Source: Candidatus Altiarchaeota archaeon (GTDB lineage: Archaea; SpSt-1190; DYHY01). From it: DNA of 18,050 nt. The translations under genes were made by a program, and so were the position numbers. Below the pieces are notes generated by a model. The model did no database searches. It saw only the letters and a list, made by a program, of their open reading frames with translations, and had not been told where the DNA came from. Below, one piece after another: positions 4,748 to 18,050 of the stretch; positions within the stretch are counted from its first letter, which is position 1, and each line of letters opens with the position of its first letter. The stretch lies in the NCBI GenBank assembly GCA_030622515.1, contig JAUXGB010000013.1, positions 1 through 18,050 on the forward strand, in the 5' to 3' direction.

Positions 4748-6754
4748 TCAACCCTCATTCGGAAAGTCGCTGCACTCTATCGTGCTGGCGTCATCAATCT
4801 CTTCCCGATACTGGAAGGCAAAAGTCATGGTGTAAAGGGTTTCGTCCAGCCCCTCGTCAGTAATAATCTCCCTAAGGCAGAACAGGTCTGTGACGTCAAC
4901 AGTCACATTGTAGTCAATTGAGCCTGTGTAAAGCTGGCCGTCAACCTCGTGCTTGCAGCACTCGCCCTTCCAAGGACTCCGCTCACAATCCACCTTAAAT
5001 AGCTCTATTGGGATGAGGGCATCCGGGTCCTCCACAACCGTCCCAGAGGGATAGGTTGTCGCAGTGTCTCTTGAGACATCCTCAGTTTCCTTGCAGATGT
5101 CGACTATATCATCAAAGTTGCTCCACAGCTTTTCAATATCAGCACAGTCATCCGCCTTCCAGTTCGAAGACGAGGTGTTGACCGTGCCAAACGTCGGCTG
5201 GTTAGTTTTCAAGGCAAGCGACAGGGGTGATGTCCATGTAGCTATGCTGCCGTTGGCCTCAGCGTTTATGCCAGCGTCGATATCAATGCCAATGTTTTTC
5301 ACCCTGACAACTGTCGGGTGCTCCAGCTCGTTCTTGTTGAAAAGGTCAGCATAAGCCTCAGTCTTGTTCCCGAAGTTCTGGACCAGCCCCTCTTGGAAGA
5401 TAGTTTCTATCGAGCTTACCTGCTGCACATCGCATGTTGTGCACTTGCCCTCTTCCGGCTCCTTGCACTCTGGGGGATAGTAGGCAGGGTCGCCAATCCT
5501 CTCGCAGATTCCGTTTCCGCATGTAAAGCAGTCGCGTGAGCATGTTCTTGTGTTCTCCCCCTTATCTGCCTCGCAGTAAAGGTTTCCGCAGTGGTCGCCA
5601 CAGTCCTGGCTGTTTCCGCAGGTCTCGATAGCAGTGCACTGCACTACATGGTCGCTGTCGCCTTCCCTGCACCAGAACTCGATTGAGCAGACCCCGTCCT
5701 CTGTCCTAGACGGAAGGCCCGGTGTTGACGAACCACCCTCGCAGGCAGAGTTGCTCCACTGGTCAGTTATCCCACAGTCTTCCGGGGCAACATCCGAATA
5801 GCAGGTTTCCCCGCTCTCGCAGTCCTGAAGGCTGTAGCCTGCCCTCACGGCGGCCAGCTGGTTGCTCTCAAGTCCCAAGCTGCTCAGGTCTTTGTAGCTT
5901 TTCCTAACGGCGCAGTCCCTTGGGCACCTGTTTATGTAGTTCCTGACCGTGAACATTAGCACCTCATGCTGCTGGCAAATCCCATCTCCACAGGTGGCGC
6001 CTGCATCTTCAGAATTGAGCTGGGTGCAGTCATTGCCAACCTCAAAGACATTGCAAACCCCGTCGTTTGTGTAGAAACAGTCGCCAACAGCATAGCCTCC
6101 ATAGCCGGGCCCCATGCTTGTTGGCTTTCCATGATAAGCATTTGAGTAAGCCTCGCTTTCTCCAGCCTTCCAGTTGCAGGTCCCGTCACCGACCCATCCG
6201 CAGTCTTCAGGACAGTTCCATATTGTTTCCTTTCCCTTCCGTGGGGTCCCCTTGATATCACCCTCCCTGTCCTTGTCGTAAAGGTTGTCGCATGTCCCGT
6301 CACCGCAGCAGCCATACTGGCTTGGGTCTGTGCACTTTGCGACAGGCTCCCCACAGTCGATTGGGCAGTTCTCAACTGTCTCGTTAACAGTCGGGGGATA
6401 AAGCTGGCCGCCAGACATCCCTTCCTCGCACCATTGCCACATAAGGATTTCGTTCAGGATAGGAACCCCTCCATAATCAGTTTGCAACGAAGCATTTACC
6501 GAAGGTATCCCACCGTGCGCTGAAGAATCATCAACAGCAAACGTGAGTATAAAGTCAACAGCAGTCTCCATAAAGAGTCGGGCCTGCTCATTAGCATGAA
6601 CTGCCTCGATGTAAAGTGTCTCGGCAGCCTGTAAATCCATATACCTGTCTATCTGGGAAAGGTAGCCGGCAGCTATCGTAAGCCCCACGCCCATGGCAAG
6701 GCCGCCAAGCATGCAGAGCAGGTCGGTAGCAAAAGCTTTCCGTCCTTTACTCAC
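4748..6754 (-). CDS. Large cysteine-repeat extracellular protein (668 aa) with an N-terminal class III signal-like anchor. It is the last gene of the array.
   Basis: A GTG start at 6752-6754 is preceded by GGAGGTGA. The N-terminus reads MSKG|RKAFATDLLCMLGGLAMGVGLTIAAG. There are about 43 Cys, in repeated NCPxDCG (x3) and CG[DN]GxC (x4) motifs. Confidence 0.8.
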   Translation of the reverse strand: MSKGRKAFATDLLCMLGGLAMGVGLTIAAGYLSQIDRYMDLQAAETLYIEAVHANEQARLFMETAVDFILTFAVDDSSAHGGIPSVNASLQTDYGGVPILNEILMWQWCEEGMSGGQLYPPTVNETVENCPIDCGEPVAKCTDPSQYGCCGDGTCDNLYDKDREGDIKGTPRKGKETIWNCPEDCGWVGDGTCNWKAGESEAYSNAYHGKPTSMGPGYGGYAVGDCFYTNDGVCNVFEVGNDCTQLNSEDAGATCGDGICQQHEVLMFTVRNYINRCPRDCAVRKSYKDLSSLGLESNQLAAVRAGYSLQDCESGETCYSDVAPEDCGITDQWSNSACEGGSSTPGLPSRTEDGVCSIEFWCREGDSDHVVQCTAIETCGNSQDCGDHCGNLYCEADKGENTRTCSRDCFTCGNGICERIGDPAYYPPECKEPEEGKCTTCDVQQVSSIETIFQEGLVQNFGNKTEAYADLFNKNELEHPTVVRVKNIGIDIDAGINAEANGSIATWTSPLSLALKTNQPTFGTVNTSSSNWKADDCADIEKLWSNFDDIVDICKETEDVSRDTATTYPSGTVVEDPDALIPIELFKVDCERSPWKGECCKHEVDGQLYTGSIDYNVTVDVTDLFCLREIITDEGLDETLYTMTFAFQYREEIDDASTIECSDFPNEG

Positions 6755-7313
6755 TCCTCGTCACCTCCGTTGCCTCTTCGATTCTCTTCCGCAGCTTCCA
6801 GTCAGTGTCTACCTTGGTTATCTTCTCCCTCGTGAGTCTGGGGTTTCCCTCTTCATCAAGCGGAAGCGGGATTAGGTAGTGCCTTGACAAGGCCTCTGTC
6901 TTAGTCTTATCAAAGCCTGCGCAGTCGCCTGCAGTGAAAAGGGCTTCCCCGCTGTTATGTTTCATCAGGCTGAAGTAGTAACAGCCCCTTAAATAGTCTA
7001 GAGTAAACCGCGACCACTTCCCTTCCACAAGCCCCTCGACACTATAGTCCTCACCACAAACCTTTGGTGTGGTAGTGTCAGCTATTATGGCGCTAATCAT
7101 CAGGTTGTAAAGCCGCGGGTTTCCCTCGCATGCCGTGTCATGTGCGGTTGAGTAGGAAAGCGACTGCATGTAAGGCAGTCTTACATCGGCAAGCATCTTC
7201 TCAGTCATATGGAAGGTTGTTGTCATGTCGAAAAGCAGGGCAAAGTAGGCAATAGTTACAAGTGAGAACATAAGTGTTGCTTCCATCAGGCAGTGGGTTA
7301 GTGCTCCTCTCAT
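6747..7313 (-). CDS. Pilin-like hypothetical protein (188 aa)
   Basis: The N-terminus is MRG|ALTHCLMEATLMFSLVTIAYFALLF. The ATG overlaps the upstream stop (ATGA), and the 3' end overlaps the next gene by 8 nt. Confidence 0.7.
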   Translation of the reverse strand: MRGALTHCLMEATLMFSLVTIAYFALLFDMTTTFHMTEKMLADVRLPYMQSLSYSTAHDTACEGNPRLYNLMISAIIADTTTPKVCGEDYSVEGLVEGKWSRFTLDYLRGCYYFSLMKHNSGEALFTAGDCAGFDKTKTEALSRHYLIPLPLDEEGNPRLTREKITKVDTDWKLRKRIEEATEVTRSE

Positions 7314-8284
7314 TCCATATCCTCCAAGAATTGCCTTCCCTGCCTTTTCACCTTGTCGATGATGTCGTCATTTAGGTCAGGGTTTGCGCACTCGCTGTGA
7401 GCCTTCCATACCCAAATCTTTAGCGAGCCTATATGCGTTGCGTCATCATAAACAATCCCCACGGGAAGCATGTAGTCTGTCGGCTTCGAATCCTTCACAT
7501 ATTCCGACAGCTGTTTCAATGTCCTAAGCCTTGCCTTCCATTTCATGTATGTCATTCCAGCCTTAGCTATTACAGCCCCAACGACAGCTGCCACTATCAT
7601 AGATGTGCCGGCACTAGGTGCGGCAAGCGCGGCCCCGACAGCAACACCAGTGCCTGCAGCCACAAGAACTGATGTCATTACATCGTCCTCGGTATAGACA
7701 TCTATAACATTGTTGAAGTGGTTCTTCATCGTCTGCTTCGTGCCTTCAAAGACCTGAGACTGCATGTCTGACCAGACGCTTCGTCCAAAGCTCCACTTGT
7801 AGGGAACAGTTATCTTTTCCTTGTGTGGGCAGAAAATGTCAACCCCGCCAAGGCCCATGCATCCTGCATGTGCATAATAGAGAGGGTTAAGAACCTCTTT
7901 CGTCCGTTCATAGTCAATCACCTCAGCCCTCCAGTGGTAGCAGAAAAGGTGGCTTTCAGGCGACATCTCCCCCATGACAGCTATGTTTATGTCGAAAGCG
8001 TCGGCAAGGGGCGATTCCCACTGGCCATACTTGTCGTCAAAGCTTTTTATTTTATCAATATCAAGCAGGTTCTTGTGGGCTGTCAGGTCCGGCTTGGTAA
8101 AAACATGGGACAGCGTCTCCTGCGAAGATACAAGCCTGTGCGCAACCATCACCGCATACTTGTATGGCATGTAAGTGTCAACCTCGCCCTGAAACTTCAT
8201 GTTAGCACCTGCGATAATGACAAAGACCAGGATTATCATAAGAAGGGAGACAAACGCTGATGAAAACCACGATAGTCCTTTCAT
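7310..8284 (-). CDS. Pilin-like hypothetical protein (324 aa) with a second Gly/Ala-rich TM helix
   Basis: The N-terminus is MKG|LSWFSSAFVSLLMIILVFVIIAGA. A second hydrophobic segment, VLVAAGTGVAVGAALAAPSAGTSMIVAAVVGAVIAKAG, lies near residues 197-234. The start directly follows the upstream TAA. Confidence 0.7.
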   Translation of the reverse strand: MKGLSWFSSAFVSLLMIILVFVIIAGANMKFQGEVDTYMPYKYAVMVAHRLVSSQETLSHVFTKPDLTAHKNLLDIDKIKSFDDKYGQWESPLADAFDINIAVMGEMSPESHLFCYHWRAEVIDYERTKEVLNPLYYAHAGCMGLGGVDIFCPHKEKITVPYKWSFGRSVWSDMQSQVFEGTKQTMKNHFNNVIDVYTEDDVMTSVLVAAGTGVAVGAALAAPSAGTSMIVAAVVGAVIAKAGMTYMKWKARLRTLKQLSEYVKDSKPTDYMLPVGIVYDDATHIGSLKIWVWKAHSECANPDLNDDIIDKVKRQGRQFLEDME

Positions 8285-8830
8285 TTAGCTCACCCACGTG
8301 CAGTTTGACTCGTCGAAATCGTTCGCCCCCAGTTCGAAGTCAAGGTTGTCCTCCCCAGTCTCAAGATTAGTGTGCTTGGTAAATACAACTATGAACCCCT
8401 TTCCCTTTGGCAGCCGGATTGTTTTTTTCGGAACATTGGTTATCGGGATAAAGCTCAGCCCCGACTCCTTCCTGTCAGGGCTCCAGACAGCAACAAAGCC
8501 GCCGGGTCCCCCTGTGCAGACATGCTGGAGTTCCCCAAAGTCACTCCAACCCTCTACGCCGCATTTGGCCGTGTCAACAGTCACAAGATAGCTGTAGGTT
8601 CCGGGGAAGTTAACGCAGTAGACCCCCATGTCTGGTGAGGTTGCAACAGCTGTCATAGCTCCTGCAAGGGTGTTTGCGACCATCCTGGCATTCTGAAGCG
8701 CCCAAAGCTGCCCCTGCATCTGGAGAAGGTAGCCCACAAGAATCACCCCTGCAACCATCATCAGGGCTAAGGGAATAAGCTGGAGCATTCCGTAAACCTC
8801 TTCTTCCTCGTCTGCAAGCTGTCCTCTCAT
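8285..8830 (-). CDS. Pilin-like hypothetical protein (181 aa)
   Basis: MRG|QLADEEEEVYG is followed by the helix MLQLIPLALMMVAGVILVGYLL. The gene lies 8 nt after the stop of the 753-aa gene. Confidence 0.65.
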   Translation of the reverse strand: MRGQLADEEEEVYGMLQLIPLALMMVAGVILVGYLLQMQGQLWALQNARMVANTLAGAMTAVATSPDMGVYCVNFPGTYSYLVTVDTAKCGVEGWSDFGELQHVCTGGPGGFVAVWSPDRKESGLSFIPITNVPKKTIRLPKGKGFIVVFTKHTNLETGEDNLDFELGANDFDESNCTWVS

Positions 8831-8838
8831 CTTTCCAC

Positions 8839-11100
8839 CTAGAACGGTTTGACCGCTCCCAGCACCTCAACCCTGTCTCCCTTGTGCTCTGCCGTGATTG
8901 CTGCAGAAACTGCAGGGTTGCACGAAATCGGCACGCCGCAATCAACTGTGTAGCAGGCTGCGCACATGGCAGGAATATCACATGTTGAAATGGCGTTCTT
9001 GAGGCAAAACACCATCCCCGTGTTGCCAAGGAGTCCGCAGTTGCCAATCGCAGCGGACAAAGTGCCAATGCCTCGCGAAAATCCCTTGCTGATAAAGCCG
9101 CTTGAAAAAGTGGCGGCCTTGATTCCCCAGTGGTCATAAACCTGACCATAGTCGAGAGGCTGCACCGGCATGCCCCGCAGCTGGATAATCCTGTTCCCCA
9201 GCTTTATCCCGTCCTCGTTAAGGTTCAACGCCTCGACAATGCAGCCCTCGCTTAAGGTGAGGGCCTTGGTATCATAATCGCAGTTGAGCCTCACAGCGCA
9301 CTCTGCCAGCTCAACCTTGTTGGTTACAGTTTCAGGGCTAACATCATCCATCTGGAAGTCTGGCGCAGGGAAAGTCTCCGTAACCGTGACGGTTTTCACG
9401 CCACAGTCAGACGACCTCAGGGCTGCAAGCACTTTCCCTTGGGTTTCAAGCAAATCGTCATTTATCTCCTGAAGCTCCGCGGCGTGCTGCTCAATAACAG
9501 CGGCCTGCCCGACAACATTAAAGTACCAGTCGCAGATGTAGTCCTTGTCATAACCCGCCTCCAGCCTGCATATCTCATCCATCTCGCTGGCAGGCTCTGC
9601 AAGGCCGGCAGCGACAAATCTCCATGGGTCGTGCGACAGGCCGGCCTCCCCAAGGACGCCGGTCCAGCTGTAAAGAAAGTCTGCCTTAAGCTGCTCAATT
9701 TTCTCGCCATCTTCTGGATGGTCTCTTGCCATTTCGTCCAGCTTGTAGGAAACAACTATCTCAACATTGTCCCAAAGCCTTTCAGCATGTTCATCCCTGA
9801 CCACAATAAACTCACTGTCCCCTTCCTGAAGCACCTGCACTATGTAGGTCGGGGTTGTTGCAGTTTTCTCAGTGAAGTGGTTTGCAGCATAGCCGCCATC
9901 TTCCAGGAGGACAAACAGCTTGTGCATATCACCGACAAACTTTTGGTGAACCTGCCTTCCCTGTGCCGCCCTAATCTGCGGCTGGTCAGACTCGACTATC
10001 GACTTTATCTGGCTTTCCGCGCTTGTCCCGTCCTTAACAACAATAACCCGGTCTATCCCGACAGGGACATTTGTCGCATTGCTGGCAATAATCTTCTCAA
10101 AATCCTCCTGCATCTCGCTTGTGGCGTCCCCAAGTTCGTATATCAGGTTGGGATAAGCTGACCCAATGAGCATTGCAATGTAACCGCTGCCGGCAGAAAC
10201 CGCAAGGTAGCCATTAAGATACTTCTTCCCAATCCCAAGCTTAAACGACTGTCTCAAAATCTTAAGCCTGCTTACCTTTTCCGTCTTTGAAAGCTGGCCA
10301 ATCTTCCACGCCTCGGCAGTGTACCAGCTGGTTGTCACGTCCTGAGTCCCTTTGATTATGTTTTTTGAAGTTACCTGTGAGGTTTCCACGACAATATCGT
10401 CGCTTGCGAGAAGAACCTCGTCAAGGTATTGGGCATTGCCTGTCTTCTGCCACTTCCCTGCGGCAAAGTCGAGGTATTTTGCCAGGTCATCCCCCTGAAT
10501 GAAAACCTTGACCCCGTCCCCTTTGTCAACCCATGCCCCTGTCTTAAGGGCCTGCTTGCTCATCCTGAACTGGCCTCCCCTGATTAGCAGCTTCTTCGTC
10601 TTTGCAAACCTGAGAAGCCCTTCCTTCATTCTTACGAATTTCCCACCAACCTTTGAAAAGACAGTCTTAAGCGCCTGCATACTCCACTTTGCAACCCCCA
10701 CACCCTTTATTGCCTGCCCCGTAGCCTTGAGGGAAGTGTAAGCGCCTTTGAAACCCTTGCCTATGCTTTTCCCTGCCTTAACCATCTCAGTCCCAAGCGA
10801 AGCTGCAGCGGCAACACCTAGAGCTGTCCTAAGTGCAGCCTTGCCTGAAATTGTTTTGCAGTCATCGCACTGGAATTGAATGTATGGCGGCGGAGCCTCA
10901 AAGCTCTTGAAGTCGCCCTCGCCCCCGCGGCACACCTCCTGGATGTATCCCTTCATCTCAGTCGCTTTTGAAGGAATCGGGTAGTTGCCAAACATAACAC
11001 CCTCAAGGGCGAGCATCATCGGCTTTGCTCCGAAAGCGATAAGGCTTCCGAAAAGGATTACAACCAGCAGCCCGCCTGTTATCCCGCGTCTATATCCCAT
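8839..11100 (-). CDS. Giant pilin-like protein (753 aa)
   Basis: The N-terminus is MGYRRG|ITGGLLVVILFGSLIAFGA. A Lys/Gly-rich region follows. A C-terminal Cys cluster reads NCGLLGNTGMVFCLKNAISTCDIPAMCAACYTVDCGVPISCNP. No in-frame stops occur over 2.26 kb. Confidence 0.8.
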   Translation of the reverse strand: MGYRRGITGGLLVVILFGSLIAFGAKPMMLALEGVMFGNYPIPSKATEMKGYIQEVCRGGEGDFKSFEAPPPYIQFQCDDCKTISGKAALRTALGVAAAASLGTEMVKAGKSIGKGFKGAYTSLKATGQAIKGVGVAKWSMQALKTVFSKVGGKFVRMKEGLLRFAKTKKLLIRGGQFRMSKQALKTGAWVDKGDGVKVFIQGDDLAKYLDFAAGKWQKTGNAQYLDEVLLASDDIVVETSQVTSKNIIKGTQDVTTSWYTAEAWKIGQLSKTEKVSRLKILRQSFKLGIGKKYLNGYLAVSAGSGYIAMLIGSAYPNLIYELGDATSEMQEDFEKIIASNATNVPVGIDRVIVVKDGTSAESQIKSIVESDQPQIRAAQGRQVHQKFVGDMHKLFVLLEDGGYAANHFTEKTATTPTYIVQVLQEGDSEFIVVRDEHAERLWDNVEIVVSYKLDEMARDHPEDGEKIEQLKADFLYSWTGVLGEAGLSHDPWRFVAAGLAEPASEMDEICRLEAGYDKDYICDWYFNVVGQAAVIEQHAAELQEINDDLLETQGKVLAALRSSDCGVKTVTVTETFPAPDFQMDDVSPETVTNKVELAECAVRLNCDYDTKALTLSEGCIVEALNLNEDGIKLGNRIIQLRGMPVQPLDYGQVYDHWGIKAATFSSGFISKGFSRGIGTLSAAIGNCGLLGNTGMVFCLKNAISTCDIPAMCAACYTVDCGVPISCNPAVSAAITAEHKGDRVEVLGAVKPF

Positions 11101-11632
11101 AGGTTACCAGTACGCCCCCTTCAAATCTCATAATAACAAGCTTATGCTCACCAGGCCCAAGAGTTACGCCTGCCAATGCGCCTGCACTGCAGTGGTGGAC
11201 CTCGCCGGCATAACTGTATATTTCTTTCTTCCAAAACCAGCTGCCTTCTGTTTCGTGCCAGCTTCTGGCTATCAAGACGCCCTTGCTCCCACTATCGCAC
11301 TTGTCCTGCATGGCTTTTACACTTTTCTTAAAGGAGGGGTTGCCTTCGTCAAAACCCGGCCAAACACTAATCCCATCCTGAATCGTATTGCAGTCATATA
11401 TCAATATCATCTTGTTCCTTGGCACGGAAATAGGCACCTCTTCCAAAATCTTGCCCTCACATACATCCCTGAGCGCATTTGTTGTGTCAGCTATGCCATA
11501 AAACATTCTGGTCTCCGCGCTCGAATCAACCATTCCCCTCACAGACCAAGCCGCGAAGTAGATAGTTACTGCAGCCAAAATCATGATGAAAAGGGTAGTA
11601 TAGGCAACACCCCTCAAACTGTGCTTAGACAT
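11090..11632 (-). CDS. Pilin-like hypothetical protein (180 aa)
   Basis: The N-terminus is MSKHSLRG|VAYTTLFIMILAAVTIYFAAW. It overlaps the downstream gene by 11 nt. Confidence 0.65.
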   Translation of the reverse strand: MSKHSLRGVAYTTLFIMILAAVTIYFAAWSVRGMVDSSAETRMFYGIADTTNALRDVCEGKILEEVPISVPRNKMILIYDCNTIQDGISVWPGFDEGNPSFKKSVKAMQDKCDSGSKGVLIARSWHETEGSWFWKKEIYSYAGEVHHCSAGALAGVTLGPGEHKLVIMRFEGGVLVTYGI

Positions 11633-11640: not shown

Positions 11641-12072
11641 TTATCCGGTCAGCCCGTTCTTTATCGCCTGCTTATTCGCGTAGGTGTGGCAGGCGCTTGG
11701 GTTGTAAATTTCGTGGACCTCTGAGCGGGTAATTGAGGAGGACTCTGTAACGTAGAGGTAAACCGCGCAGTCGCAGTTAGTGAACTTTGCATAATTGTCC
11801 CACTCCTCCCGGGAAATCCAGCCAAGGGATACGGCGGACTTGGTTATGTCTTCCAGTCTCTTCTCTGTCGGGTTGTTGGTCCACTTGCTCCTGTACGAGT
11901 TAAGGCAAAAGCTTTCAATGGTGATTTGCGCAGTGCTCTCATCCGTATTTTTGATTATATCGTCAAACTCCTCAAGGTTGGCCTTCCCCATCATCTGATA
12001 CATTGCGACCCCGACTACCAAAGCCAGGAGAATTGCGACTAAAATCCAGATAGGCTGGTCTGTTCCTTTCAT
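11641..12072 (-). CDS. Pilin-like hypothetical protein (143 aa)
   Basis: The N-terminus is MKG|TDQPIWILVAILLALVVGVAMYQMM. It is preceded by a 56-nt gap containing ATATTTA (a possible internal promoter). Confidence 0.65.
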   Translation of the reverse strand: MKGTDQPIWILVAILLALVVGVAMYQMMGKANLEEFDDIIKNTDESTAQITIESFCLNSYRSKWTNNPTEKRLEDITKSAVSLGWISREEWDNYAKFTNCDCAVYLYVTESSSITRSEVHEIYNPSACHTYANKQAIKNGLTG

Positions 12073-12128: not shown

Positions 12129-12794
12129 TCAGGGAAATGTCCAGCCAACAGCCTCATTTGCGCACTGCTGCACGCTTATCCCGCAGTTATCAGCCTTGTT
12201 CTTAACCGTTTTGCAAACCATGGCGCAGTATGGCGCAAAGTCCCTCTTCATGGTGGTTGCCGAGCCGCTCTCAATCTTCTCCCTCATAATGCTTGCCGCA
12301 GACCCATAGTCAATTGTCCTCAGCTTTTCCCCGCAATCCTCCCCAGCTTCGCAGAGGATAAACTTCAACGCCTCAACACACCTGACAGCATTGTAGCATG
12401 GCGCACCTTCAGTCCTCCCGTCAGTCCCGCCACAGTGATATGTCCGCGGGTTTGCTATCAATTCCCCATTTTCATCCACTATGACCAGCCCTGAGGAGTA
12501 GAGGTGCCACGGTATCTCATAGTACTTGTTCCACTTGTTTACAAACTCGTTTTCACAGTTTGAGCACCCTTCACAATTCTCGTTCGGGCAGTTTGCAATA
12601 TGCTGCCCCCATGCAACGCACTGGATTTTCATGGCGAAGTAAGCGCCAGCATTCCCTTCCAGCTGCTGGGAGTATCCACTAGTTTCTTCCCTGACCACGT
12701 CAGCGTTGAGGTAGTTCATCATCAGGAGAACTACCACTATACCTACCATTAAGGAAATTACCAGCGCAATTGTCATGTCAAAGCCGCCTTTCAT
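12129..12794 (-). CDS. Pilin-like Cys-rich hypothetical protein (221 aa from the ATG at 12794; the ORF track's longer 242-aa form starts at 12857)
   Basis: The ATG at 12792-12794 forms an ATGA overlap with the stop of the upstream gene. The N-terminus is MKG|GFDMTIALVISLMVGIVVVLLMM, and it carries many Cys (CEGCSNCENE etc). Confidence 0.7.
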   Translation of the reverse strand: MKGGFDMTIALVISLMVGIVVVLLMMNYLNADVVREETSGYSQQLEGNAGAYFAMKIQCVAWGQHIANCPNENCEGCSNCENEFVNKWNKYYEIPWHLYSSGLVIVDENGELIANPRTYHCGGTDGRTEGAPCYNAVRCVEALKFILCEAGEDCGEKLRTIDYGSAASIMREKIESGSATTMKRDFAPYCAMVCKTVKNKADNCGISVQQCANEAVGWTFP

Positions 12795-13204
12795 TCCCCA
12801 AGATACCCCCTTAAAGGACTGTTCCAGCACCTCTCGGTCGGCGGGTCTCTGGAACACTCCTTGTATATTTCAAGAACTGCAACGCAGACATCATAGCAAA
12901 TTGACGGGCTTTTCTGCGCGTCTTCAGGCACGCACTGGCTGCTTAAGCTGAGCCGCTGGGAATATTCAGGAACCTGGGAAGGCATTGTAATGTCAATAAA
13001 GTCGCTCCTGTACCATGCGTCGCAGGCCCTGTAAATTGCCTGCACTTTCAGCCCTGTCGCAAAGGGTATGTTTGAGTCGTCAAGGCTGAATTCGCCAGAA
13101 GTCCCAAGCTTTCCAATAAGGACCGTATAGCTTACAAGGAGGAGGCCAATCCCCACCAGTACAATCAGTATCCAAGCAACAGGCATCGTCATCCCTTTCC
13201 TCAA
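12791..13204 (-). CDS. Pilin-like hypothetical protein (137 aa with the TTG start at 13204, or 133 aa from the ATG at 13192)
   Basis: With the TTG start the N-terminus is (M)RKG|MTMPVAWILIVLVGIGLLLV. GAGGAAAGGG lies immediately 5' of the internal ATG at 13192. Confidence 0.65.
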   Translation of the reverse strand: MRKGMTMPVAWILIVLVGIGLLLVSYTVLIGKLGTSGEFSLDDSNIPFATGLKVQAIYRACDAWYRSDFIDITMPSQVPEYSQRLSLSSQCVPEDAQKSPSICYDVCVAVLEIYKECSRDPPTERCWNSPLRGYLGE

Positions 13205-13722
13205 GTTACATCCCTCTCCACCCTGTCCTTCACATCCCCTATCCTTGAGTTGACGCAGTAAAGGTAGGCTGTATTGTAGCTCATGTCAACCTCGCCGCCG
13301 TCAATAATCGCCTTGTGGGTCTTTGTGCTGTACTGGAATGTGTCAGGAAACTTTGCAGGGCTTACCCTGCACCCTATCTCGTCTATAAGCAGCTTTACGC
13401 ACGCGGCCTTGCACTGGCGGCACGGCTTTCTAGGCCTTGGGGCAGTCTCATAGCAGACCTGACAAAAACCCCACCTGTCGTCTTCCAAAATATCTTGGCT
13501 AATAGCAGCCTCCCTCAGGCTTCCCGGTATTGTCGAGTCAAGGACAAGGTTGCTTGTCCAGTCCCTGCACGACCTTACCAAATCGTTTGTCGACAGGGCC
13601 ATCTTAACGTCAGTCGCCTCATTTGCCAGAGGCACATATCTTTGGAAAATACCTAAGTAGACGAGATATAGGAGTAGCAATGCAATTATTATCGCAATTA
13701 TCCACTTTATCCCAATCTCCAT
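13201..13722 (-). CDS. Pilin-like Cys-containing hypothetical protein (173 aa)
   Basis: The N-terminus is MEIG|IKWIIAIIIALLLLYLVYLGIF. It has an ATG start and Cys pairs CRQCKAAC. Confidence 0.65.
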   Translation of the reverse strand: MEIGIKWIIAIIIALLLLYLVYLGIFQRYVPLANEATDVKMALSTNDLVRSCRDWTSNLVLDSTIPGSLREAAISQDILEDDRWGFCQVCYETAPRPRKPCRQCKAACVKLLIDEIGCRVSPAKFPDTFQYSTKTHKAIIDGGEVDMSYNTAYLYCVNSRIGDVKDRVERDVT

Positions 13723-13731: not shown

Positions 13732-14310
13732 CTAACTACATTTTATTGTGCCAATCCTTGTAGATGAGCTACAAAGGGTAGACGTCCTCAACGTGTTCTC
13801 AAGTATTGACTGCTTCTTGTTCTCGCTTACCGCAGTACACTGCTGGTCAACAAGATTTGACATTTCAATAAGGGCGTTGCACGCGTTTACGCACTGCTTG
13901 ACATAGGTGTCATCGAACTTGACAAACCCGTTGTTGCATTTTGTCGACCCCGGATTTTGGGCACATTCCCTCTGGACGTCAAGCGCTTTGTCCTTCAGGC
14001 TGTTTTTGTCGTCCCAGCAGCAACCTGTCTTGCTGCCAAAAGGCGCCATCTTGTCAGGTATCTTGAAAGTCTCGACTATCGCCTTAGCCTTGTACTTGTC
14101 AGGGCTGCCAAGCCACCGCTGGCAAGCAGCTATAGCGCTCCCAGCCTCAAGCTGCTCCTTCTGCGTATCCCCTATCTTCCACATGTCAAACAAGCCCGTC
14201 TGGACCTTGTTTACCGCCCCCATACCTACGAGCAGTATCATCACAAAGAGGATTACCGCAATAACCAGACCTATTACATTGGATTCTGCCATGGTTGAAT
14301 AGATAATCAA
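13732..14310 (-). CDS. Pilin-like Cys-rich hypothetical protein (192 aa with the TTG start at 14310; more likely 186 aa from the ATG at 14292)
   Basis: Codon 14308-14310 is TTG. The in-frame ATG at 14290-14292 gives MAESNVIGLVIAVILFVMILLVGMG. The C-terminal half has 10 Cys. Confidence 0.65.
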   Translation of the reverse strand: MIIYSTMAESNVIGLVIAVILFVMILLVGMGAVNKVQTGLFDMWKIGDTQKEQLEAGSAIAACQRWLGSPDKYKAKAIVETFKIPDKMAPFGSKTGCCWDDKNSLKDKALDVQRECAQNPGSTKCNNGFVKFDDTYVKQCVNACNALIEMSNLVDQQCTAVSENKKQSILENTLRTSTLCSSSTRIGTIKCS

Positions 14311-14329: not shown

Positions 14330-14488
14330 CTACCCAAAGAGGTTGAAACTGGAAACCGAGCGGCCAACCTGCCCCCATGCGTCCCCAACCATGAAGTTCA
14401 TAGCCCCGGTGAACCAGAGCGCCAGAGCAACGACAATGACTGCAAGGCCAATCGTCATTATAAGCTTGAAAATGTCTTCCCCTGCCAT
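14330..14488 (-). CDS. Small single-TM protein, 52 aa (MAGEDIFKLIMTIGLAVIVVALALWFTGAMNFMVGDAWGQVGRSVSSFNLFG). It is missing from the ORF track, which reports only the overlapping 62-aa 'MRYGRG' frame.
   Basis: My own translation of the minus strand gives an ATG at 14486-14488, 3 nt after the upstream stop, and a TAG at 14330-14332. It has a clean TM helix. The overlapping 62-aa frame is Arg/Gly/Trp-rich and looks spurious. Confidence 0.55.
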   Translation of the reverse strand: MAGEDIFKLIMTIGLAVIVVALALWFTGAMNFMVGDAWGQVGRSVSSFNLFG

Positions 14489-14491
14489 ACC

Positions 14492-15028
14492 TCAACTCCC
14501 CAGATAGTCAAACCTCCAGCTAAATACGCTTCTCTCCTCGCCAAGGTGATGCAGCCTCACAATTGCCTGACCGCTTCCATAGCCGCTGGCGTCAATCTTG
14601 ACCTTATTGCTTGATATGTCGTCCCAGTTAAATATAACTCCCCTGCTTGAGAGAAGCTCCGCGCTCCCCTCGCCAGACGGGAAGCCCTTTGTCCCTTCAG
14701 CAATCTTCTCCTCATTCAACCATACCTCGTAAGAGAGCTGGACCTTTGCCAAAGCAATTTCGTCGTCACCGCAGTTGCAAACGCTTATGAGGGTGCCGCC
14801 GAAAACAGTTCCCTCCTTTGCAACAGCCCGCCTGAACCCAAGAACCTCAAGCCTCAGGTCCTCCCCTTCAATGCCGCTGCACGCGCAGGCAAAGCTGTGA
14901 AGGGCGCGTTCCGAGTCCTTGGAAGAATCGATAACCCCCGGCAGGATAACAAAGAGGAAGACAAATATGACTAGAAAGACGGCAACAATCTCAATCACTA
15001 TCGTCATGTTAAACCCGGTCGTTCCCAT
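14492..15028 (-). CDS. Pilin-like hypothetical protein (178 aa)
   Basis: The N-terminus is MGTTG|FNMTIVIEIVAVFLVIFVFLFVIL. The ATG overlaps the upstream TGA (TGATG). Confidence 0.7.
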   Translation of the reverse strand: MGTTGFNMTIVIEIVAVFLVIFVFLFVILPGVIDSSKDSERALHSFACACSGIEGEDLRLEVLGFRRAVAKEGTVFGGTLISVCNCGDDEIALAKVQLSYEVWLNEEKIAEGTKGFPSGEGSAELLSSRGVIFNWDDISSNKVKIDASGYGSGQAIVRLHHLGEERSVFSWRFDYLGS

Positions 15029-15510
15029 CAGGATATCTCCTCAATTGTTACGCAACCGTCAGGGTAGGTCCCGCCCCCAACTGCCTCAATGCCAATCATG
15101 TAGCTTCTCCCGCTCCAGATATAATGGGTTTCGGTTGGCCCAAGCATGTAAAAGTTCAGCCCTTCCTCGTCTCCCGCAGGGCAGGTGGCGACAGCAGTAA
15201 CAATCGGGCCGCCGCCAGCCCTTATCTCCCGCCTCTCATCCTCCTCAAAGCAGTCGCAGTTGACAAGGTTCTTCAAAAAAGAGTCGAGCGAAACCCCATC
15301 GCCCTGCTTGTTAAACCTCACATAAGCAACCCCGTCCTTCAGGTAAGCGCAAAGCTTCTCCATATTGTAATCCCCTGTCGAGGTTTTTCCCCCGCTTGCA
15401 AGGGCGCTGAGAAGGGTCAGGGTGCTTCCCCCGAGAAGGGCGAAAACCAGGGCAGCAACAACTATCGCAATCCCGATGTTTATCGCATTCTTGGTTCCCT
15501 GTTCTACCAA
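15028..15510 (-). CDS. Pilin-like hypothetical protein (160 aa, TTG start)
   Basis: A TTG at 15508-15510 is immediately preceded by an in-frame TAG. The N-terminus is (M)VEQGTKNA|INIGIAIVVAALVFALLGG. Confidence 0.55.
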   Translation of the reverse strand: MVEQGTKNAINIGIAIVVAALVFALLGGSTLTLLSALASGGKTSTGDYNMEKLCAYLKDGVAYVRFNKQGDGVSLDSFLKNLVNCDCFEEDERREIRAGGGPIVTAVATCPAGDEEGLNFYMLGPTETHYIWSGRSYMIGIEAVGGGTYPDGCVTIEEIS

Positions 15511-15614
15511 CTAAGCCACGTTCCAATCTTCGAGGCACTGCCCTGTATCATCATAAAGATGACAGCGGCAGCAAGAAGTACCAGGATTATTCCCACAATG
15601 GCTTCAATGCTCAT
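15504..15614 (-). CDS. Possible tiny single-TM ORF, 36 aa (MSIEAIVGIILVLLAAAVIFMMIQGSASKIGTWLSW), not in the ORF track
   Basis: GAGGGG lies 3 nt upstream of the ATG at 15612-15614. Its TAG stop overlaps the TTG start of the next gene by 7 nt. It fills an otherwise empty 110-nt gap. Confidence 0.35.
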   Translation of the reverse strand: MSIEAIVGIILVLLAAAVIFMMIQGSASKIGTWLSW

Positions 15615-15621
15615 GTCCCCT

Positions 15622-15810
15622 CTAGACTGCCGGGCTGACTGTTCCCCCAAGTGCATCACCTACAATCTGGTCCCTTATTCCTGTAAGGGCAGAACTGACC
15701 CCCGAAGGGTCCATTATGCCTCCAAACACATCTGACGTAAAGAAAATGTAAATAACAAATAAAAATACTATCGCACCGACAACAAACACTAGACCATACT
15801 TCCCCCTCAT
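15622..15810 (-). CDS. Small single-TM protein (62 aa), MRG|KYGLVFVVGAIVFLFVIYIFF
   Basis: It has an ATG start with GGGGGA upstream. The N-terminus is pilin-like and the C-terminal half is Gly-rich. Confidence 0.55.
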   Translation of the reverse strand: MRGKYGLVFVVGAIVFLFVIYIFFTSDVFGGIMDPSGVSSALTGIRDQIVGDALGGTVSPAV

Positions 15811-15813: not shown

Positions 15814-16005
15814 TCATCCCCCAATAATGTCCTTCCCCACAGCTGCCAAAGTGTCTCCTGCCCCGCCAACACCACCTCTCCCTATCAGGTCAGACCATGA
15901 GCCAAGGGAGAAAATCTGGCCGAAAGCTATGGCAACAACAACCATCCCGATAATGAAAACCATGGTCCATACCAGATTTGAATTAACAACCTTGAACGCC
16001 ATCAT
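15814..16005 (-). CDS. Small single-TM protein (63 aa)
   Basis: It has a TM helix (VWTMVFIIGMVVVAIAF) and a Gly-rich tail. Its ATG overlaps the upstream TGA (ATGA). Confidence 0.5.
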   Translation of the reverse strand: MMAFKVVNSNLVWTMVFIIGMVVVAIAFGQIFSLGSWSDLIGRGGVGGAGDTLAAVGKDIIGG

Positions 16006-16157
16006 GTCACCTGCCCAATACCAATAGCCTTTGCTATATTTGCAAGCTGGCCCCAGTAGCCCACCATTGACTGGCCCTGTGTAAGCATGAGGGCGACCAC
16101 TACCATCCCGACCAGCGCAAAGACAACGAAGTAAATTATTCTGTTAACGCTTGCCAT
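16002..16157 (-). CDS. Small single-TM protein, 51 aa (MASVNRIIYFVVFALVGMVVVALMLTQGQSMVGYWGQLANIAKAIGIGQVT), not in the ORF track
   Basis: My own translation gives an ATG at 16155-16157 overlapping the upstream TAA (TAATG). The TGA at 16002-16004 overlaps the next ATG (ATGA). Confidence 0.5.
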   Translation of the reverse strand: MASVNRIIYFVVFALVGMVVVALMLTQGQSMVGYWGQLANIAKAIGIGQVT

Positions 16158-16351
16158 TACAACCAGTCCATCCCCGGGAAGAGGTCGTGAAAGAGGGTTG
16201 TGTAAAAGCTGATTGCCAAGTTGTAAACCCCGGTGAAAATTCTTCCCATGCCCGGCATAATAGCAAAGCCAAGCGCGCCTATAATCACAACAATGGTTAT
16301 CACTGCCTTCAGGTTAAATGCCGGCTGTCCCACATTTCCGTCATCTGACAT
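16157..16351 (-). CDS. Small single-TM protein (64 aa)
   Basis: It starts 4 nt after the stop of the platform gene, with GGTGTGAGAT upstream. It has a TM helix (AVITIVVIIGALGFAIM). Confidence 0.5.
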   Translation of the reverse strand: MSDDGNVGQPAFNLKAVITIVVIIGALGFAIMPGMGRIFTGVYNLAISFYTTLFHDLFPGMDWL

Positions 16352-16354
16352 ATC

Positions 16355-18050
16355 TCACACCAACAGTGTCGAGCTGAGCGCGCCAAATACCAGCGATATC
16401 ACAGCTGTCACCAATCCATATAGTATGGCGCCAACTACTAAAACTTTTCCAAGGATTGCTTCCGTCCCAACCTTGTCGTCAACCCCGTACTGCAGCCCGC
16501 CAATAAAGTATCCCATTATTGTCAGCAGTATGATGGTGTAAAAACCAACGACAAGCTGGAGGAAGCTTGCCTGCATAGTCCCCTGAATGTTTATCATGCT
16601 CTGGATAAAAGAGCCCGAATAGGCCTGAAGCGCTCCCCCTGCAAAGACGTTCTCAACCTCGGTCGCAATCCTCAAAACTATAGTGGTTATCAGCTGCGAC
16701 AGCCCGACCACGACCCCGCTGATAAGGGGGATAAGAAACAGCGCCTGGAACTGCATTGATGTGACGTGGTCGCTCAAAACGTCCTCGACCTTGTTCTGCA
16801 CAGCCTGCAGGTTCTTCAGGTAGTTCGAGATGCTTAGTGTCGTGATAGCGGCAACCCGCGGCCCCTCCTTTGCCGACTCAACAATAACCGACATAACATT
16901 CTTGACTATCGATGACGGGAACAAATTGATTGAGCCAAACCTCTTGTCAAAAATCGCCATCTCAAGCGGCATTCCCCCCCTTGTCACGTTGGCAATAGTA
17001 TTTTGGAAAAACTTGGCCGTTGTCGTTCCCTTCAAATCAGCCGCCGCCCTCTGGAAGGCCTCCTCAAGCGGCTTGCCCTGGTCAAGAATATTCCCCAGCT
17101 GGAAAAGGGACGAAGAGAACTCCTCTTCCATCCTGAATATCTTCTCCCTAAGCTCAAGCTTTTGGAAAGACACCAGATAGAAGTAGGCGCCAATAGCTAC
17201 GCCAAGTGCAACAATCAGCGGAAGGGTTATGAGGGCGCTCGCCCCCGCCGTGCTTCCCTGTGGTATCTGCGCTGAAAGTATCCTCCCGTTCGACGCTGAA
17301 ATCGCCATAAGGGTTATTGACGAGAGGAGAAGGAAGATGGCGAGTGAGGGGATAATCGCGGGAACGTTTATTTCTTTCCCCTTGGAAATCTCAAGCCTGA
17401 AGTGGCCGGGAGGGGCAAGCTCTGGATATTTTGTCATATCTATCTTTGAAAAACCACTTGGCCTTGTGCTCAGGATGTAAACAATCACAAGTATCATGAT
17501 GAACGGGAGGAAAAAGTCGTAGATAACCACGAGAGGGGCTGCAATGCTCCCCTCCGACATGAAAATGCTTGCAACAGGCGCCATGACTAGGCCGAGAATC
17601 GGCAGCAAAACCCCCAGCGCGTTGGTGATGGCAACAGGCATGCCTAATCCCCTTGCGAATCCTTCCATCTTAAGCTTCGTGTCCTCAAGCGCAAGGTTAA
17701 TCGCCTTCTCCAGCGTCCTCAACCTCAGCGCATCGTTAGGCTCATCAGGCGAGTTGGCAACAAGATACAATGCGTTTGAAAAACCCGGCGCCCACTTCTT
17801 CACCCTCTGGCTGTAATTCAGCAGCGCCTCCTTCATGTCAAGGTGAATCTTCAGCTCAACCTCCCACATCATCAGCTTAAACTCCCTGCCGATTGGTTCC
17901 GGCACGGTTCGAGACGCAAAGCTGACCGCCTTCTCAAGGCTTGGCGAGACCCTCAGGCTGATTACAAGGTAGAGAATAGCCAGCGGCGACTGGCCAAGGA
18001 TTGTCATCCTCAACCCCTTCATTCTCCAGTATGGGTAAAACATCACGACC
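16355..18050 (-). CDS. FlaJ/TadC/PilC-family (T2SS-F domain) polytopic membrane platform protein of a type-IV-filament system; the 5' end is at or just beyond the window edge
   Basis: The 563+ aa protein has an N-terminal TM helix followed by a cytoplasmic alpha-helical domain. Multiple TM blocks are separated by a second soluble domain. This length and topology are typical of archaeal FlaJ/TadC. The frame is open to nt 18050. Confidence 0.7.
   Translation of the reverse strand, partial: VVMFYPYWRMKGLRMTILGQSPLAILYLVISLRVSPSLEKAVSFASRTVPEPIGREFKLMMWEVELKIHLDMKEALLNYSQRVKKWAPGFSNALYLVANSPDEPNDALRLRTLEKAINLALEDTKLKMEGFARGLGMPVAITNALGVLLPILGLVMAPVASIFMSEGSIAAPLVVIYDFFLPFIMILVIVYILSTRPSGFSKIDMTKYPELAPPGHFRLEISKGKEINVPAIIPSLAIFLLLSSITLMAISASNGRILSAQIPQGSTAGASALITLPLIVALGVAIGAYFYLVSFQKLELREKIFRMEEEFSSSLFQLGNILDQGKPLEEAFQRAAADLKGTTTAKFFQNTIANVTRGGMPLEMAIFDKRFGSINLFPSSIVKNVMSVIVESAKEGPRVAAITTLSISNYLKNLQAVQNKVEDVLSDHVTSMQFQALFLIPLISGVVVGLSQLITTIVLRIATEVENVFAGGALQAYSGSFIQSMINIQGTMQASFLQLVVGFYTIILLTIMGYFIGGLQYGVDDKVGTEAILGKVLVVGAILYGLVTAVISLVFGALSSTLLV

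What the first reader, a model, noticed from the sequence alone, without database searches (positions are those of the whole stretch)
4748..18050. 13-kb co-directional array: a FlaJ/TadC-like platform, then tiny TM proteins, then at least 13 consecutive class-III-signal (prepilin-like) proteins including 668- and 753-aa giants
Almost every protein from 15810 down to 4748 begins with M[KR]G, xRRG, xLRG or similar, followed directly by a hydrophobic helix of about 20 residues. This is the archaeal prepilin/FlaFind pattern. The N-termini seen are MKG|LSWF, MRG|ALTH, MRG|QLAD, YRRG|ITGG, SLRG|VAYT, MKG|TDQP, MKG|GFDM, MRKG|MTMP, MEIG|IKWI, MGTTG|FNMT, MRG|KYGL and MSKG|RKAF. They sit downstream of a T2SS-F/FlaJ-type membrane protein, in the ATPase > platform > pilins order of Sulfolobus ups/bas-type loci. 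Genes are coupled by ATGA/TAATG overlaps or gaps of at most 10 nt. Several use GTG/TTG starts with good SD-like sequences, so the array looks like one long translationally coupled operon. The number of pilin-like genes, the sizes of two of them, and the cysteine-rich ectodomains are unlike canonical archaella or adhesive-pilus operons. It may be a bindosome- or pseudopilus-like system that displays large disulfide-rich proteins, or a new filament type.
Basis: partly seen in the sequence, partly recalled or inferred. Interest (0 to 1): 0.85.

Follow-up and report, generated by a model that had tools for sequence, protein, structure and literature searches.

The report
DPANN archaeal type-IV-pilus-like gene array
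This is the membrane-platform gene and 19 downstream pilin-like genes of a type-IV-pilus-like machine from a tiny, probably host-dependent (DPANN) archaeon; loci of this kind have been noticed before but never studied, and most of its parts resemble nothing with a known structure.

Summary
Twenty tightly packed minus-strand genes fill 4748-18050, and all 19 proteins after the first have one N-terminal hydrophobic helix. The first gene is a divergent TadC/FlaJ (T2SSF) platform whose 5' end is cut off by the contig end. The ATPase is therefore not visible here, but related DPANN genomes have a ~760-aa T2SSE ATPase directly upstream.

About half of the array (10-11 of 19, not 13 or more) carries a [KR]G class-III-type leader, far more than chance. 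The 143-aa family has a variable basic leader ending in KG, followed by a conserved mature N-terminus. One "tiny TM protein" (15504-15659) has an RG|DMSIE motif conserved in a relative, which makes it the best major-pilin candidate. Other members, including two of five tandem paralogs, have no leader.

An Undinarchaeota MAG carries the same 19-gene array, gene for gene. A confident model of the 143-aa protein shows a transmembrane helix plus an all-alpha head, with no match in the PDB. The 753-aa giant has 12 relatives among 1.84 billion proteins.

Published genomic surveys already describe such DPANN islands as pilus clusters, and none has been characterised. Verdict: a real, uncharacterised variant of an archaeal type IV filament locus. 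Interest is moderate.

The parts
16355..18050 (-). TadC/FlaJ-type (T2SSF) membrane platform. It is 5'-truncated by the contig end, leaving 563 of roughly 690 aa.
   Evidence: The frame is open to base 18050. There are 37 homologues of 620-785 aa, all from DPANN or unclassified archaeal MAGs and metagenomes. PF00482 is hit in 8 of 28 members, and P0025 and P0028 pass the cut-off with 2 stretches. Seven hydrophobic segments, no Cys.
16157..16351 (-). Tiny single-helix protein, 64 aa (NLKA|VITIVV).
   Evidence: Same as the NCBI gene call. L001 has a 61-aa counterpart in the same position.
16002..16157 (-). Tiny single-helix protein, 51 aa, with no [KR]G.
   Evidence: L001 has a 47-aa positional counterpart that starts MRG.
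15814..16005 (-). Tiny single-helix protein, 63 aa.
   Evidence: L001 has a 64-aa positional counterpart. This exact product is not in the protein collection.
15622..15810 (-). Tiny single-helix protein, 62 aa, starting MRG|KYGLVFVV.
15504..15659 (-). Candidate small Flp/EpdE-like prepilin. The leader ends QSRG and is followed by DMSIEAIVG..., with Glu at +5. The mature part is 37 aa.
   Evidence: The motif is conserved in L003 (RRRRG|DMSVELL). L007 has a [KR]G|xxxxE equivalent (KRKG|QVDDEAVL). The long ORF overlaps the upstream gene by 38 nt. Neither start is on record as a gene call.
15028..15510 (-). 160-aa N-terminally anchored protein with 5 Cys and no [KR]G.
   Evidence: Similarity to its L001 positional counterpart is weak (z = 2.5).
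14492..15028 (-). 178-aa N-terminally anchored protein with 4 Cys, starting MGTTG|FNMTIVIE.
   Evidence: The L001 orthologue starts MKG (z = 9.1). The family is found in 7 loci.
14330..14488 (-). Tiny single-helix protein, 52 aa (MAGEDIF...).
   Evidence: L001 has a 49-aa positional counterpart.
13732..14292 (-). Paralog 1 of a five-gene tandem family, 186 aa, 10 Cys. It is leaderless (MAESNVIGLVIAV).
   Evidence: The start matches the NCBI call. Orthologues P0042-P0049 all start MA... In L001 and L003 no in-frame start lies further upstream.
13201..13722 (-). Paralog 2, 173 aa, 8 Cys, leaderless (MEIGIKWIIAII).
   Evidence: Iterative HMM searches link it to its neighbours. It shares the conserved Cys..Trp scaffold.
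12791..13204 (-). Paralog 3, 137 aa, 6 Cys, TTG start, MRKG|MTMPVAWIL.
   Evidence: The L001 orthologue starts MRG (z = 11).
12129..12794 (-). Paralog 4, 221 aa, 14 Cys, MKG|GFDMTIALV.
   Evidence: The start matches the NCBI call.. The L001 orthologue gives z = 29.
11641..12072 (-). Paralog 5, 143 aa, 4 Cys. This is the clearest class III prepilin-like protein, MKG|TDQPIWILVAILLALVVG.
   Evidence: Orthologues have basic leaders of 3-26 aa, nearly all ending in KG, then a conserved [AS]EQPIW[IL]LVA. The AlphaFold2 model has pLDDT 86 and shows a TM helix plus an all-alpha head. No PDB match.
11090..11632 (-). 180-aa protein with leader MSKHSLRG|VAYTTLFIM and 4 Cys.
   Evidence: The family is found in 6 loci. 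The L001 orthologue has AFRRG.
8839..11100 (-). 753-aa giant, MGYRRG|ITGGLLVVILF, 16 Cys.
8285..8830 (-). 181-aa protein. MRG|QLADEEEE precedes the helix, which lies at residues 18-36. 4 Cys.
   Evidence: The L001 orthologue gives z = 23.
7310..8284 (-). 324-aa protein, MKG|LSWFSSAF, with an extra hydrophobic hairpin at residues ~202-247.
   Evidence: The L001 orthologue gives z = 10.7.
6747..7313 (-). 188-aa protein, MRG|ALTHCLMEATLMF, 5 Cys.
   Evidence: The L001 orthologue has KERRG (z = 25).
4748..6754 (-). 668-aa giant, MSKG|RKAFATDLL, 43 Cys. The conserved N-terminal ~135 aa are followed by a Cys-rich expansion with 4 C-x-x-[DE]-C (three of them C-P-x-D-C) and 3 C-G-[DN]-G-x-C motifs.
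   Evidence: The L001 orthologue is only 327 aa and matches residues 26-134. No Pfam, NCBIfam or PDB sequence match. Singleton cluster.

Best explanation
The window holds most of a type IV filament (TFF, archaeal type-IV-pilus-like) operon from a DPANN archaeon. Its closest relatives are MAGs labelled Undinarchaeota or Micrarchaeum and unclassified archaeal MAGs.

Shown:
- A TadC/FlaJ-family platform is followed by 19 co-transcribed-looking genes.
- Each product has an N-terminal hydrophobic helix.
- About half have a short basic leader ending in [KR]G, as class III (prepilin) signal peptides do.
- The whole array is conserved gene for gene in another genome.
- In related genomes a T2SSE ATPase sits directly upstream of the platform.

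Inferred mechanism:
1. The proteins insert into the membrane by their N-terminal helix.
2. A PibD/EppA-type prepilin peptidase encoded elsewhere trims the [KR]G leaders. PibD is known to accept 3-residue leaders.
3. The ATPase-platform motor extracts the subunits from the membrane and stacks their helices into a filament or a short pseudopilus.
4. The ~37-residue mature product of 15504-15659 (RG|DMSIE) is the best candidate for the bulk subunit.
5. The five disulfide-stabilised all-alpha paralogs and the other mid-size proteins act as minor or initiating subunits.
6. The 753-aa and 668-aa Cys-rich proteins are displayed at the tip or base as adhesins.
7. The likely role is attachment to a host cell or surface. 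DNA uptake has also been suggested in the literature for Undinarchaeota.

The leaderless members either join without cleavage or stay in the membrane as an anchoring or alignment complex.
For: Platform family:
- PF00482 is hit in 8 of 28 members, and two pass the curated cut-off with two stretches each.
- The window protein is 39-78% identical to these members over its full length.

ATPase:
- A PF00437 ATPase of 760-774 aa lies directly upstream in L001 and L003.
- Its best solved relatives are the A. fulgidus secretion ATPase 2OAP, CpaF and FlaI.

N-termini:
- All 19 downstream proteins have an N-terminal helix.
- [KR]G is enriched at p = 5e-6 in the window.
- In related arrays the motif is present in 30 of 49 proteins against 26 of 183 controls, p = 2e-10.
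- The 143-aa family has leaders of variable length and a conserved mature N-terminus.
- The L011 array has canonical NNKG|Q leaders.
- The RG|DMS[IV]E motif in the tiny ORF is conserved.

Conservation:
- L001 has the same 19 genes. 12 of the 13 larger pairs score z > 4.

Literature:
- Undinarchaeota MAGs encode prepilin peptidases arCOG02298/02300 and were described as having pilus clusters (PMC7414124 supplement).
- PibD cleaves leaders of 3-4 residues (PMC4307647).
Against: - No pilin, archaellin or class III Pfam or NCBIfam model matches any array protein, here or in L011.
- The one confidently modelled member has an all-alpha head, not the alpha/beta or Ig-like head of solved pilins, and matches nothing in the PDB.
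- 8-9 proteins lack a [KR]G leader, and two paralogs provably have no leader at all.
- In two proteins the helix starts more than 10 residues after the Gly.
- No ATPase or peptidase is in the window, and no peptidase candidate lies in the flanks of the first 50 related loci by a crude screen.
- Nothing shows that a filament is made. 19 subunits is far more than any characterised archaeal pilus uses.
Confidence: 0.72

Rival explanations
1. This is a membrane-anchored surface complex rather than a filament. Most of the 19 proteins are signal-anchored ectoproteins that stay in the membrane. They would form a stator, alignment or envelope-spanning scaffold, comparable in role to FlaF/FlaG or bacterial TadG/TadD-type accessories. 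Alternatively they form a static display platform for the two giants. Only one or two tiny proteins, or unlinked pilins, would be polymerised.
For: - About half lack a class III leader, and the 186-aa and 173-aa paralogs cannot have one.
- The all-alpha head is unlike any solved pilin.
- The 324-aa protein has an extra hydrophobic hairpin.
- ARMAN-4 and most Parvarchaeota relatives have the ATPase-platform pair with no downstream array. The motor therefore does not need these genes next to it.
Against: - The [KR]G enrichment, and the variable leaders ending in KG ahead of a conserved mature end, are hard to explain for plain signal anchors.
- The array is kept in strict synteny behind the platform in several genomes.
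Confidence: 0.2
2. These are ordinary Sec-secreted or lipid-anchored extracellular proteins that merely neighbour a pilus platform. The N-terminal helices would be Sec signal peptides removed by signal peptidase I.
For: - N-terminal basic residues followed by a hydrophobic stretch is also the Sec pattern.
- Cys-rich ectodomains suit secreted proteins.
Against: - The hydrophobic segments reach the threshold over 19-residue windows, which is transmembrane length rather than a 7-15-residue h-region. The basic part is often only M[KR]G.
- Six members are 36-64 aa and would have almost nothing left after Sec cleavage.
- The motif enrichment is specific to the arrays.
- The 19 genes keep their order behind the ATPase and platform in L001.
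Confidence: 0.05
3. This is a mobile or viral island, or a chance run of ORFs.
For: - Sequence evolves fast.
- The window's own products that were looked up are all singleton clusters, and the 753-aa giant had no relative in the word-indexed search.
Against: - The platform has no relatives in 2.9 million viral contigs.
- Flanking genes are housekeeping (GlmS, Alba, SPFH), and the Band_7 neighbour is shared with L001.
- No repeats or tRNA genes mark borders.
- Composition is uniform across the window.
Confidence: 0.02

Closest known systems
DPANN/Undinarchaeota 'pilus gene clusters'. These comprise an arCOG01818 VirB11/FlaI-like ATPase, an arCOG01808 TadC and unannotated signal-peptide proteins (PMC6393860 Fig. 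2A; PMC7414124 supplement).
   Same: Same lineage group, the same ~760-aa ATPase and ~700-aa platform family, and the same run of unannotated proteins with N-terminal helices. L001 (an Undinarchaeota MAG) is a gene-for-gene counterpart.
   Different: Those reports only list the core genes or state that the dark-matter genes are probably pilins. They make no gene-by-gene analysis. The five-gene paralog family, the leaderless members, the Flp-like tiny prepilin and the giants are not described there, as far as the text I could read shows.
Methanococcus maripaludis Epd pili (EppA-dependent), with several minor pilins and a small major pilin, EpdE.
   Same: An archaeal TFF with many pilin genes. 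Processing sites are KG|Q-type, and Glu at +5 is typical of EppA substrates (PMC4371748). Related arrays use KG|Q.
   Different: Per the 2026 TFF preprint, system 1, which includes Epd, is characterised by two platform genes; here there is one fused platform. No sequence or Pfam similarity between the pilins was found. There are 19 linked genes here, against five pilins (EpdA-E) listed for Epd, and the major pilin gene epdE is recalled, not checked here, to lie apart from the assembly genes.
Bacterial Tad/Flp pilus (CpaF/TadA, TadB/C, Flp, pseudopilins TadE/F, large anchored TadG).
   Same: - The ATPase of relatives matches CpaF (E = 7e-18).
- A very small prepilin with G|xxxxE is present.
- The gene order runs motor, then small pilin-like proteins, then large N-terminally anchored proteins.
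   Different: - The Flp signature is G|xxxxEY, whereas here it is G|DMSIEA.
- There is no secretin or Rcp component, as expected for an archaeon.
- No TadE or TadG family hits were found.
- The resemblance in order is recalled from general knowledge and was not tested.
Sulfolobus Ups/Aap pili and the bindosome (BasEF plus sugar-binding proteins with class III leaders).
   Same: An ATPase-platform pair plus proteins with very short class III leaders, processed by the permissive PibD.
   Different: Those loci have 2-3 pilins. Bindosome cargo are recognisable substrate-binding proteins, and none is found here. No homology to UpsA/B or AapA/B was detected.

Membership tests
Type IV filament (TFF) superfamily locus | Polytopic T2SSF-family (PilC/TadC/FlaJ) platform protein | tested here: met
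   The window protein alone scores PF00482 E = 0.038, below the cut-off. Full-length homologues at 39% identity pass it with two T2SSF stretches, and 8 of 28 members hit.
Type IV filament (TFF) superfamily locus | T2SSE/VirB11-family hexameric ATPase partnered with the platform | not testable with these tools
   The contig ends inside the platform gene. In relatives L001, L003, L011 and L034 a 746-774-aa ORF lies directly upstream. It hits PF00437 in L001 and L003, the two that were scanned.
Type IV filament (TFF) superfamily locus | Subunits with class III signal peptides: a short basic leader, [KR][GA] at the cleavage site, then a hydrophobic helix of ~20 residues | tested here: met
   Met for 10-11 of 19 proteins by a FlaFind-like rule that I wrote myself; the original program was not run. 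The strongest cases are 11641-12072 and 15504-15659. Not met for 8-9 members.
Type IV filament (TFF) superfamily locus | A24-family prepilin peptidase (PibD/FlaK/EppA) in the genome | not testable with these tools
   None is in the window. A crude screen of the first 50 related loci (multi-TM ORFs with a GxGD motif) found none. The literature reports arCOG02298/02300 in Undinarchaeota MAGs.
Canonical type IV pilin fold | N-terminal alpha-1 helix packed against a beta-sheet (bacterial) or Ig-like beta-sandwich (archaeal) head | tested here: not met
Archaellum | FlaB-type archaellins (PF01917), FlaH, and FlaF/FlaG next to FlaI/FlaJ | tested here: not met
   No archaellin or Fla accessory family hit at E <= 1 for any product.
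Bindosome (Bas-type) | Substrate-binding proteins of ABC transporters that carry class III leaders | tested here: not met
   No SBP or other domain was detected in any array protein. There is no ABC transporter in the window.
Flp/Tad-type pilin | A prepilin of roughly 50-80 aa with the G|xxxxEY processing motif | tested here: inconclusive
   15504-15659 is 51 aa with RG|DMSIEA. Glu is at +5 but Ala replaces Tyr. The motif is conserved in L003, with an analogous one in L007. There is no Pfam hit, and the start codon is not confirmed.

The most novel reading that the evidence does not exclude
The locus builds a filament type not yet seen. Its core would be a minimal subunit of ~37 residues. It would carry a multi-protein cap made of disulfide-locked all-alpha 'pilins', some of which have dispensed with the leader peptide and therefore with the prepilin peptidase. 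The two giant Cys-rich proteins would be displayed as host-recognition modules, making this the attachment organelle of this DPANN lineage.
Probability: 0.15. Interest if true: 0.75.

Novelty: new variant of a known kind. Interest (0 to 1): 0.45.

Why it matters
How DPANN archaea, with their tiny genomes, find and hold on to host cells is still largely unknown. Type-IV-pilus-like loci are among the few large conserved surface systems they keep. This window gives a gene-by-gene parts list for one such system:
- a candidate minimal major pilin;
- a five-member family with a head fold that matches no solved structure;
- members with no leader peptide;
- two very large, fast-evolving Cys-rich proteins of the sort expected for host-specific adhesins.

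These are concrete targets for proteomics, in vitro PibD cleavage assays, structure work and cryo-ET in enrichment cultures. The limits are plain. The contig is a fragment of an uncultured organism, the core machinery is of a known type, and nothing here shows that a filament is made.

Tried and rejected
1. Extending the contig. The window is the entire 18,050-bp NCBI record. Exact-product look-ups for the 64-aa and 753-aa products returned no contig.
2. Domain assignment of the 19 array proteins by Pfam and, for the nine largest, NCBIfam. Nothing significant was found. The same holds for Pfam on the L011 array, whose leaders are canonical.
3. PDB sequence searches with the platform profile, the paralog profile and the 668-aa protein. 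None gave a significant hit. A 'pilin' chain, 6w8u, appears at E = 0.87 on the helix only.
5. Word-indexed homologue search for the 753-aa giant. It found only itself. The full HMMER scan found 12 relatives.
6. Internal-repeat test of the two platform halves by hhalign. Not significant, probability 7%.
7. Closer relatives in metagenomes. The best match is 53% identical. No viral relatives were found.
8. Linked prepilin peptidase. No candidate lies in the flanks of the first 50 related loci.
9. Rfam, tRNA and tandem-repeat scans found nothing relevant to the array.
10. The bindosome, archaellum and mobile-element readings were rejected for the reasons given in the membership test and the rival explanations.

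Full report
**What is in the sequence**

On the minus strand, 20 ORFs tile 4748-18050 almost without gaps. After correcting two starts to the ones used in the NCBI gene calls (13732-14292 and 12129-12794), the junctions are overlaps of up to 11 nt or gaps of at most 9 nt. The exceptions are one gap of 19 nt, one of 56 nt, and a 38-nt overlap for the long form of 15504-15659. Four genes start with GTG or TTG.

A 19-residue hydropathy scan finds exactly one hydrophobic segment within the first ~45 residues of each of the 19 downstream proteins. The 324-aa protein has one extra hairpin. The platform and the six tiny proteins (36-64 aa) contain no Cys. The 13 larger proteins contain 127 Cys in 3,519 residues, in even numbers in 10 of the 13.

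The physical observation is therefore real. GC content is even along the window. There are no tRNA genes, Rfam families or relevant repeats.

**The platform**

The ORF at 16355-18046 is a fragment. Its frame stays open to base 18050. Its 37 database homologues are 620-785 aa (most 656-720) and align from about their residue 130-150. The window is the complete 18,050-bp NCBI contig, so nothing lies upstream.

Alone, the protein gives only a sub-threshold PF00482 hit (E = 0.038) and no NCBIfam hit. Eight of 28 family members do hit PF00482. P0025 (39% identical over 99% of the query) and P0028 pass Pfam's cut-off with two T2SSF stretches, which is the usual PilC/TadC/FlaJ architecture. I accept it as a divergent T2SSF platform.

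**Lineage and context**

A scan of one genome per species found 47 loci with this platform. Nearly all are MAGs labelled as DPANN or simply 'archaeon': Undinarchaeota, Micrarchaeum, Parvarchaeota including ARMAN-4 and ARMAN-5, 'Nanoarchaeota' and Woesearchaeota. One is labelled Methanobacteriota. None of the closest five is more than 52% identical. The only closer protein (78%) sits on a 3-kb contig.

In L001 (an Undinarchaeota MAG) and L003, a 760-774-aa PF00437 ATPase lies directly upstream of the platform. L011 and L034 have 762- and 746-aa ORFs in the same position, which I did not scan. The best solved relatives of the L001 ATPase are the A. fulgidus secretion ATPase 2OAP, CpaF and FlaI.

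L001 also ends with a Band_7 gene on the opposite strand, as the window does at 3358-4341. There are no relatives among viral contigs.

**Is the array conserved?**

Yes, within one clade. L001 has 19 genes after its platform, with sizes 61, 47, 64, 63, 40, 152, 195, 49, 175, 202, 135, 211, 141, 189, 169, 213, 206, 327 and 632 aa. The window has 64, 51, 63, 62, 51/36, 160, 178, 52, 186, 173, 137, 221, 143, 180, 753, 181, 324, 188 and 668 aa. The only change in order is the position of the 753/632-aa giant.

Twelve of the 13 larger positional pairs are significantly similar (z = 4-54 against shuffles). The tiny ones are too short and too diverged to score, but they keep position, size and a helix. 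L003, L007/L008 and L011 carry related arrays.

ARMAN-4 and most Parvarchaeota relatives have the ATPase-platform pair followed by unrelated genes. Their subunits, if any, are encoded elsewhere.

**Class III signal peptides**

- **In the window.** [KR]G occurs in the first 12 residues of 10 of 19 proteins. Ten of the 22 N-terminal K/R residues are followed by G, against 8.6% elsewhere in the same proteins (p = 5e-6). By a stricter FlaFind-like rule of my own, which requires [KR][GA] within 10 residues before the helix, 9 of 19 pass.
- **In related arrays.** 30 of 49 proteins pass that rule, against 26 of 183 other ORFs with an N-terminal helix in the same loci (odds ratio 9.5, p = 2e-10).
- **The 143-aa family (11641-12072).** Orthologues have leaders of 3 to 26 residues, nearly all ending in KG, followed by a nearly invariant [AS]EQPIW[IL]LVA[IL]LLA. 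A variable basic leader ahead of a conserved mature end is what a processed prepilin looks like.
- **L011.** Its proteins have canonical NNKG|Q leaders, comparable with the KG|Q sites listed for M. maripaludis pilins (PMC4371748).
- **Very short leaders.** The M[KR]G leaders of three residues here are at the shortest length PibD has been shown to cleave. FlaK needs five (PMC4307647).

MEIG, MGTTG and the MAES start lack the basic residue. In 8285-8830 and 6747-7313 the helix begins more than 10 residues after the Gly.

**The tiny proteins were underrated**

The long form of 15504-15659 reads (V/M)MHLGEQSARQSRG|DMSIEAIVGIILVLL.... Its L003 counterpart reads ...KRRRRG|DMSVELLITVIL.... L007 has ...KRVKRKG|QVDDEAVLTVTII....

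A basic leader, Gly at -1 and Glu at +5, with a mature part of 36-53 residues, is the pattern of bacterial type IV and Flp pilins. Per PMC4371748 it is also the pattern of EppA substrates. This makes it the best candidate for the bulk filament subunit. The start codon is unconfirmed, and neither form is on record as a gene call.

**A tandem paralog family with a new head**

Iterative HMM searches link the five consecutive genes 13732-14292, 13201-13722, 12791-13204, 12129-12794 and 11641-12072. Alignment shows an N-terminal helix and then a conserved scaffold in which C56, C100 and C128 are invariant and W59 nearly so.

Two of the paralogs have no leader. All nine database orthologues of the 186-aa protein start MA[EAT][ED].[VI]IG. 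In L001 and L003 no in-frame start lies further upstream. In the alignment the 'A' of MA sits where the 'G' of KG sits in the processed family.

**The giants**

- **The 668-aa protein** shares residues 26-134 with a 327-aa L001 orthologue. It carries an expansion with 43 Cys, four C-x-x-[DE]-C motifs (three of them C-P-x-D-C) and three C-G-[DN]-G-x-C motifs. It has no Pfam, NCBIfam or PDB sequence match.

**What it most likely is and does**

The best-supported reading (about 0.7) is a type IV filament operon of a DPANN archaeon. The steps that are shown and those that are inferred are set out under Best explanation.

The main rival (about 0.2) is that most members stay in the membrane as an anchoring or display complex, and only a tiny protein or unlinked pilins polymerise. 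The leaderless members, the non-pilin head and the array-less ARMAN loci speak for that view. Sec secretion and a mobile-element origin are unlikely.

**Relation to what is known**

Makarova et al. 2019 (PMC6393860) state that some DPANN islands with a FlaI-type ATPase (printed 'FliI' in that text), TadC and signal-peptide 'dark matter' proteins are probably diverse pilins. The supplement of Dombrowski et al. 2020 (PMC7414124) reports Undinarchaeota clusters with a 757-aa arCOG01818 ATPase, arCOG01808 TadC and prepilin peptidases, and suggests host interaction or DNA uptake. A 2026 preprint that classifies archaeal TFF systems mentions DPANN only under system 1, Aap-like systems and subsystem 4A.

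The kind is therefore known and the core is annotated, but no such locus has been characterised. The composition found here differs from every characterised archaeal pilus. I rate it a new variant of a known kind, with interest 0.45.

Noticed in passing
window 1196-2257 (-): A radical SAM ORF (1622-2257, PF04055) and the unannotated 140-aa ORF 1196-1618 are in the same reading frame. They are separated only by one TGA and one Lys codon (...ctc aag TGA aaa ATG...). This could be two genes, a pseudogene, or a recoded or read-through stop.
   Followed up: partly
window 1-1203 (+): The ORF 73-1203 matches only positions ~220-600 of GlmS, that is the two SIS domains. Its glutaminase half is missing, probably because the gene is cut by the contig start.
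   Followed up: partly
window 2285-2668 (-), repeat at 2559-2607: An Alba-family protein carries an N-terminal extension with a 15-nt tandem repeat that encodes [10 protein letters not shown].
   Followed up: no
window 2703-3299 (+): A 198-aa ORF between Alba and the SPFH gene has no Pfam or NCBIfam match.
   Followed up: no
window 4505-4711 (-): A 68-aa 2x[4Fe-4S] ferredoxin lies 36 nt downstream of the last array gene on the same strand. It has no counterpart at the end of the L001 array, so it is probably not part of the system.
   Followed up: partly
L034 (ARMAN-4) 7278-11614; other Parvarchaeota loci: The same ATPase-platform pair occurs without any downstream pilin-like array and is followed by housekeeping genes. 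In these lineages the subunits are unlinked or absent.
   Followed up: partly
L003 14100-16055: A 651-aa protein with 42 Cys sits early in the L003 array. It has no BLAST similarity to the window's 668-aa, 43-Cys protein, which suggests that Cys-rich giants expanded independently.
   Followed up: no
L001 7758-10040; L003 7639-9963: The ATPases of this family are ~760-774 aa. About 290 residues precede the region that aligns with solved secretion ATPases. This is a long, unassigned N-terminal extension.
   Followed up: no
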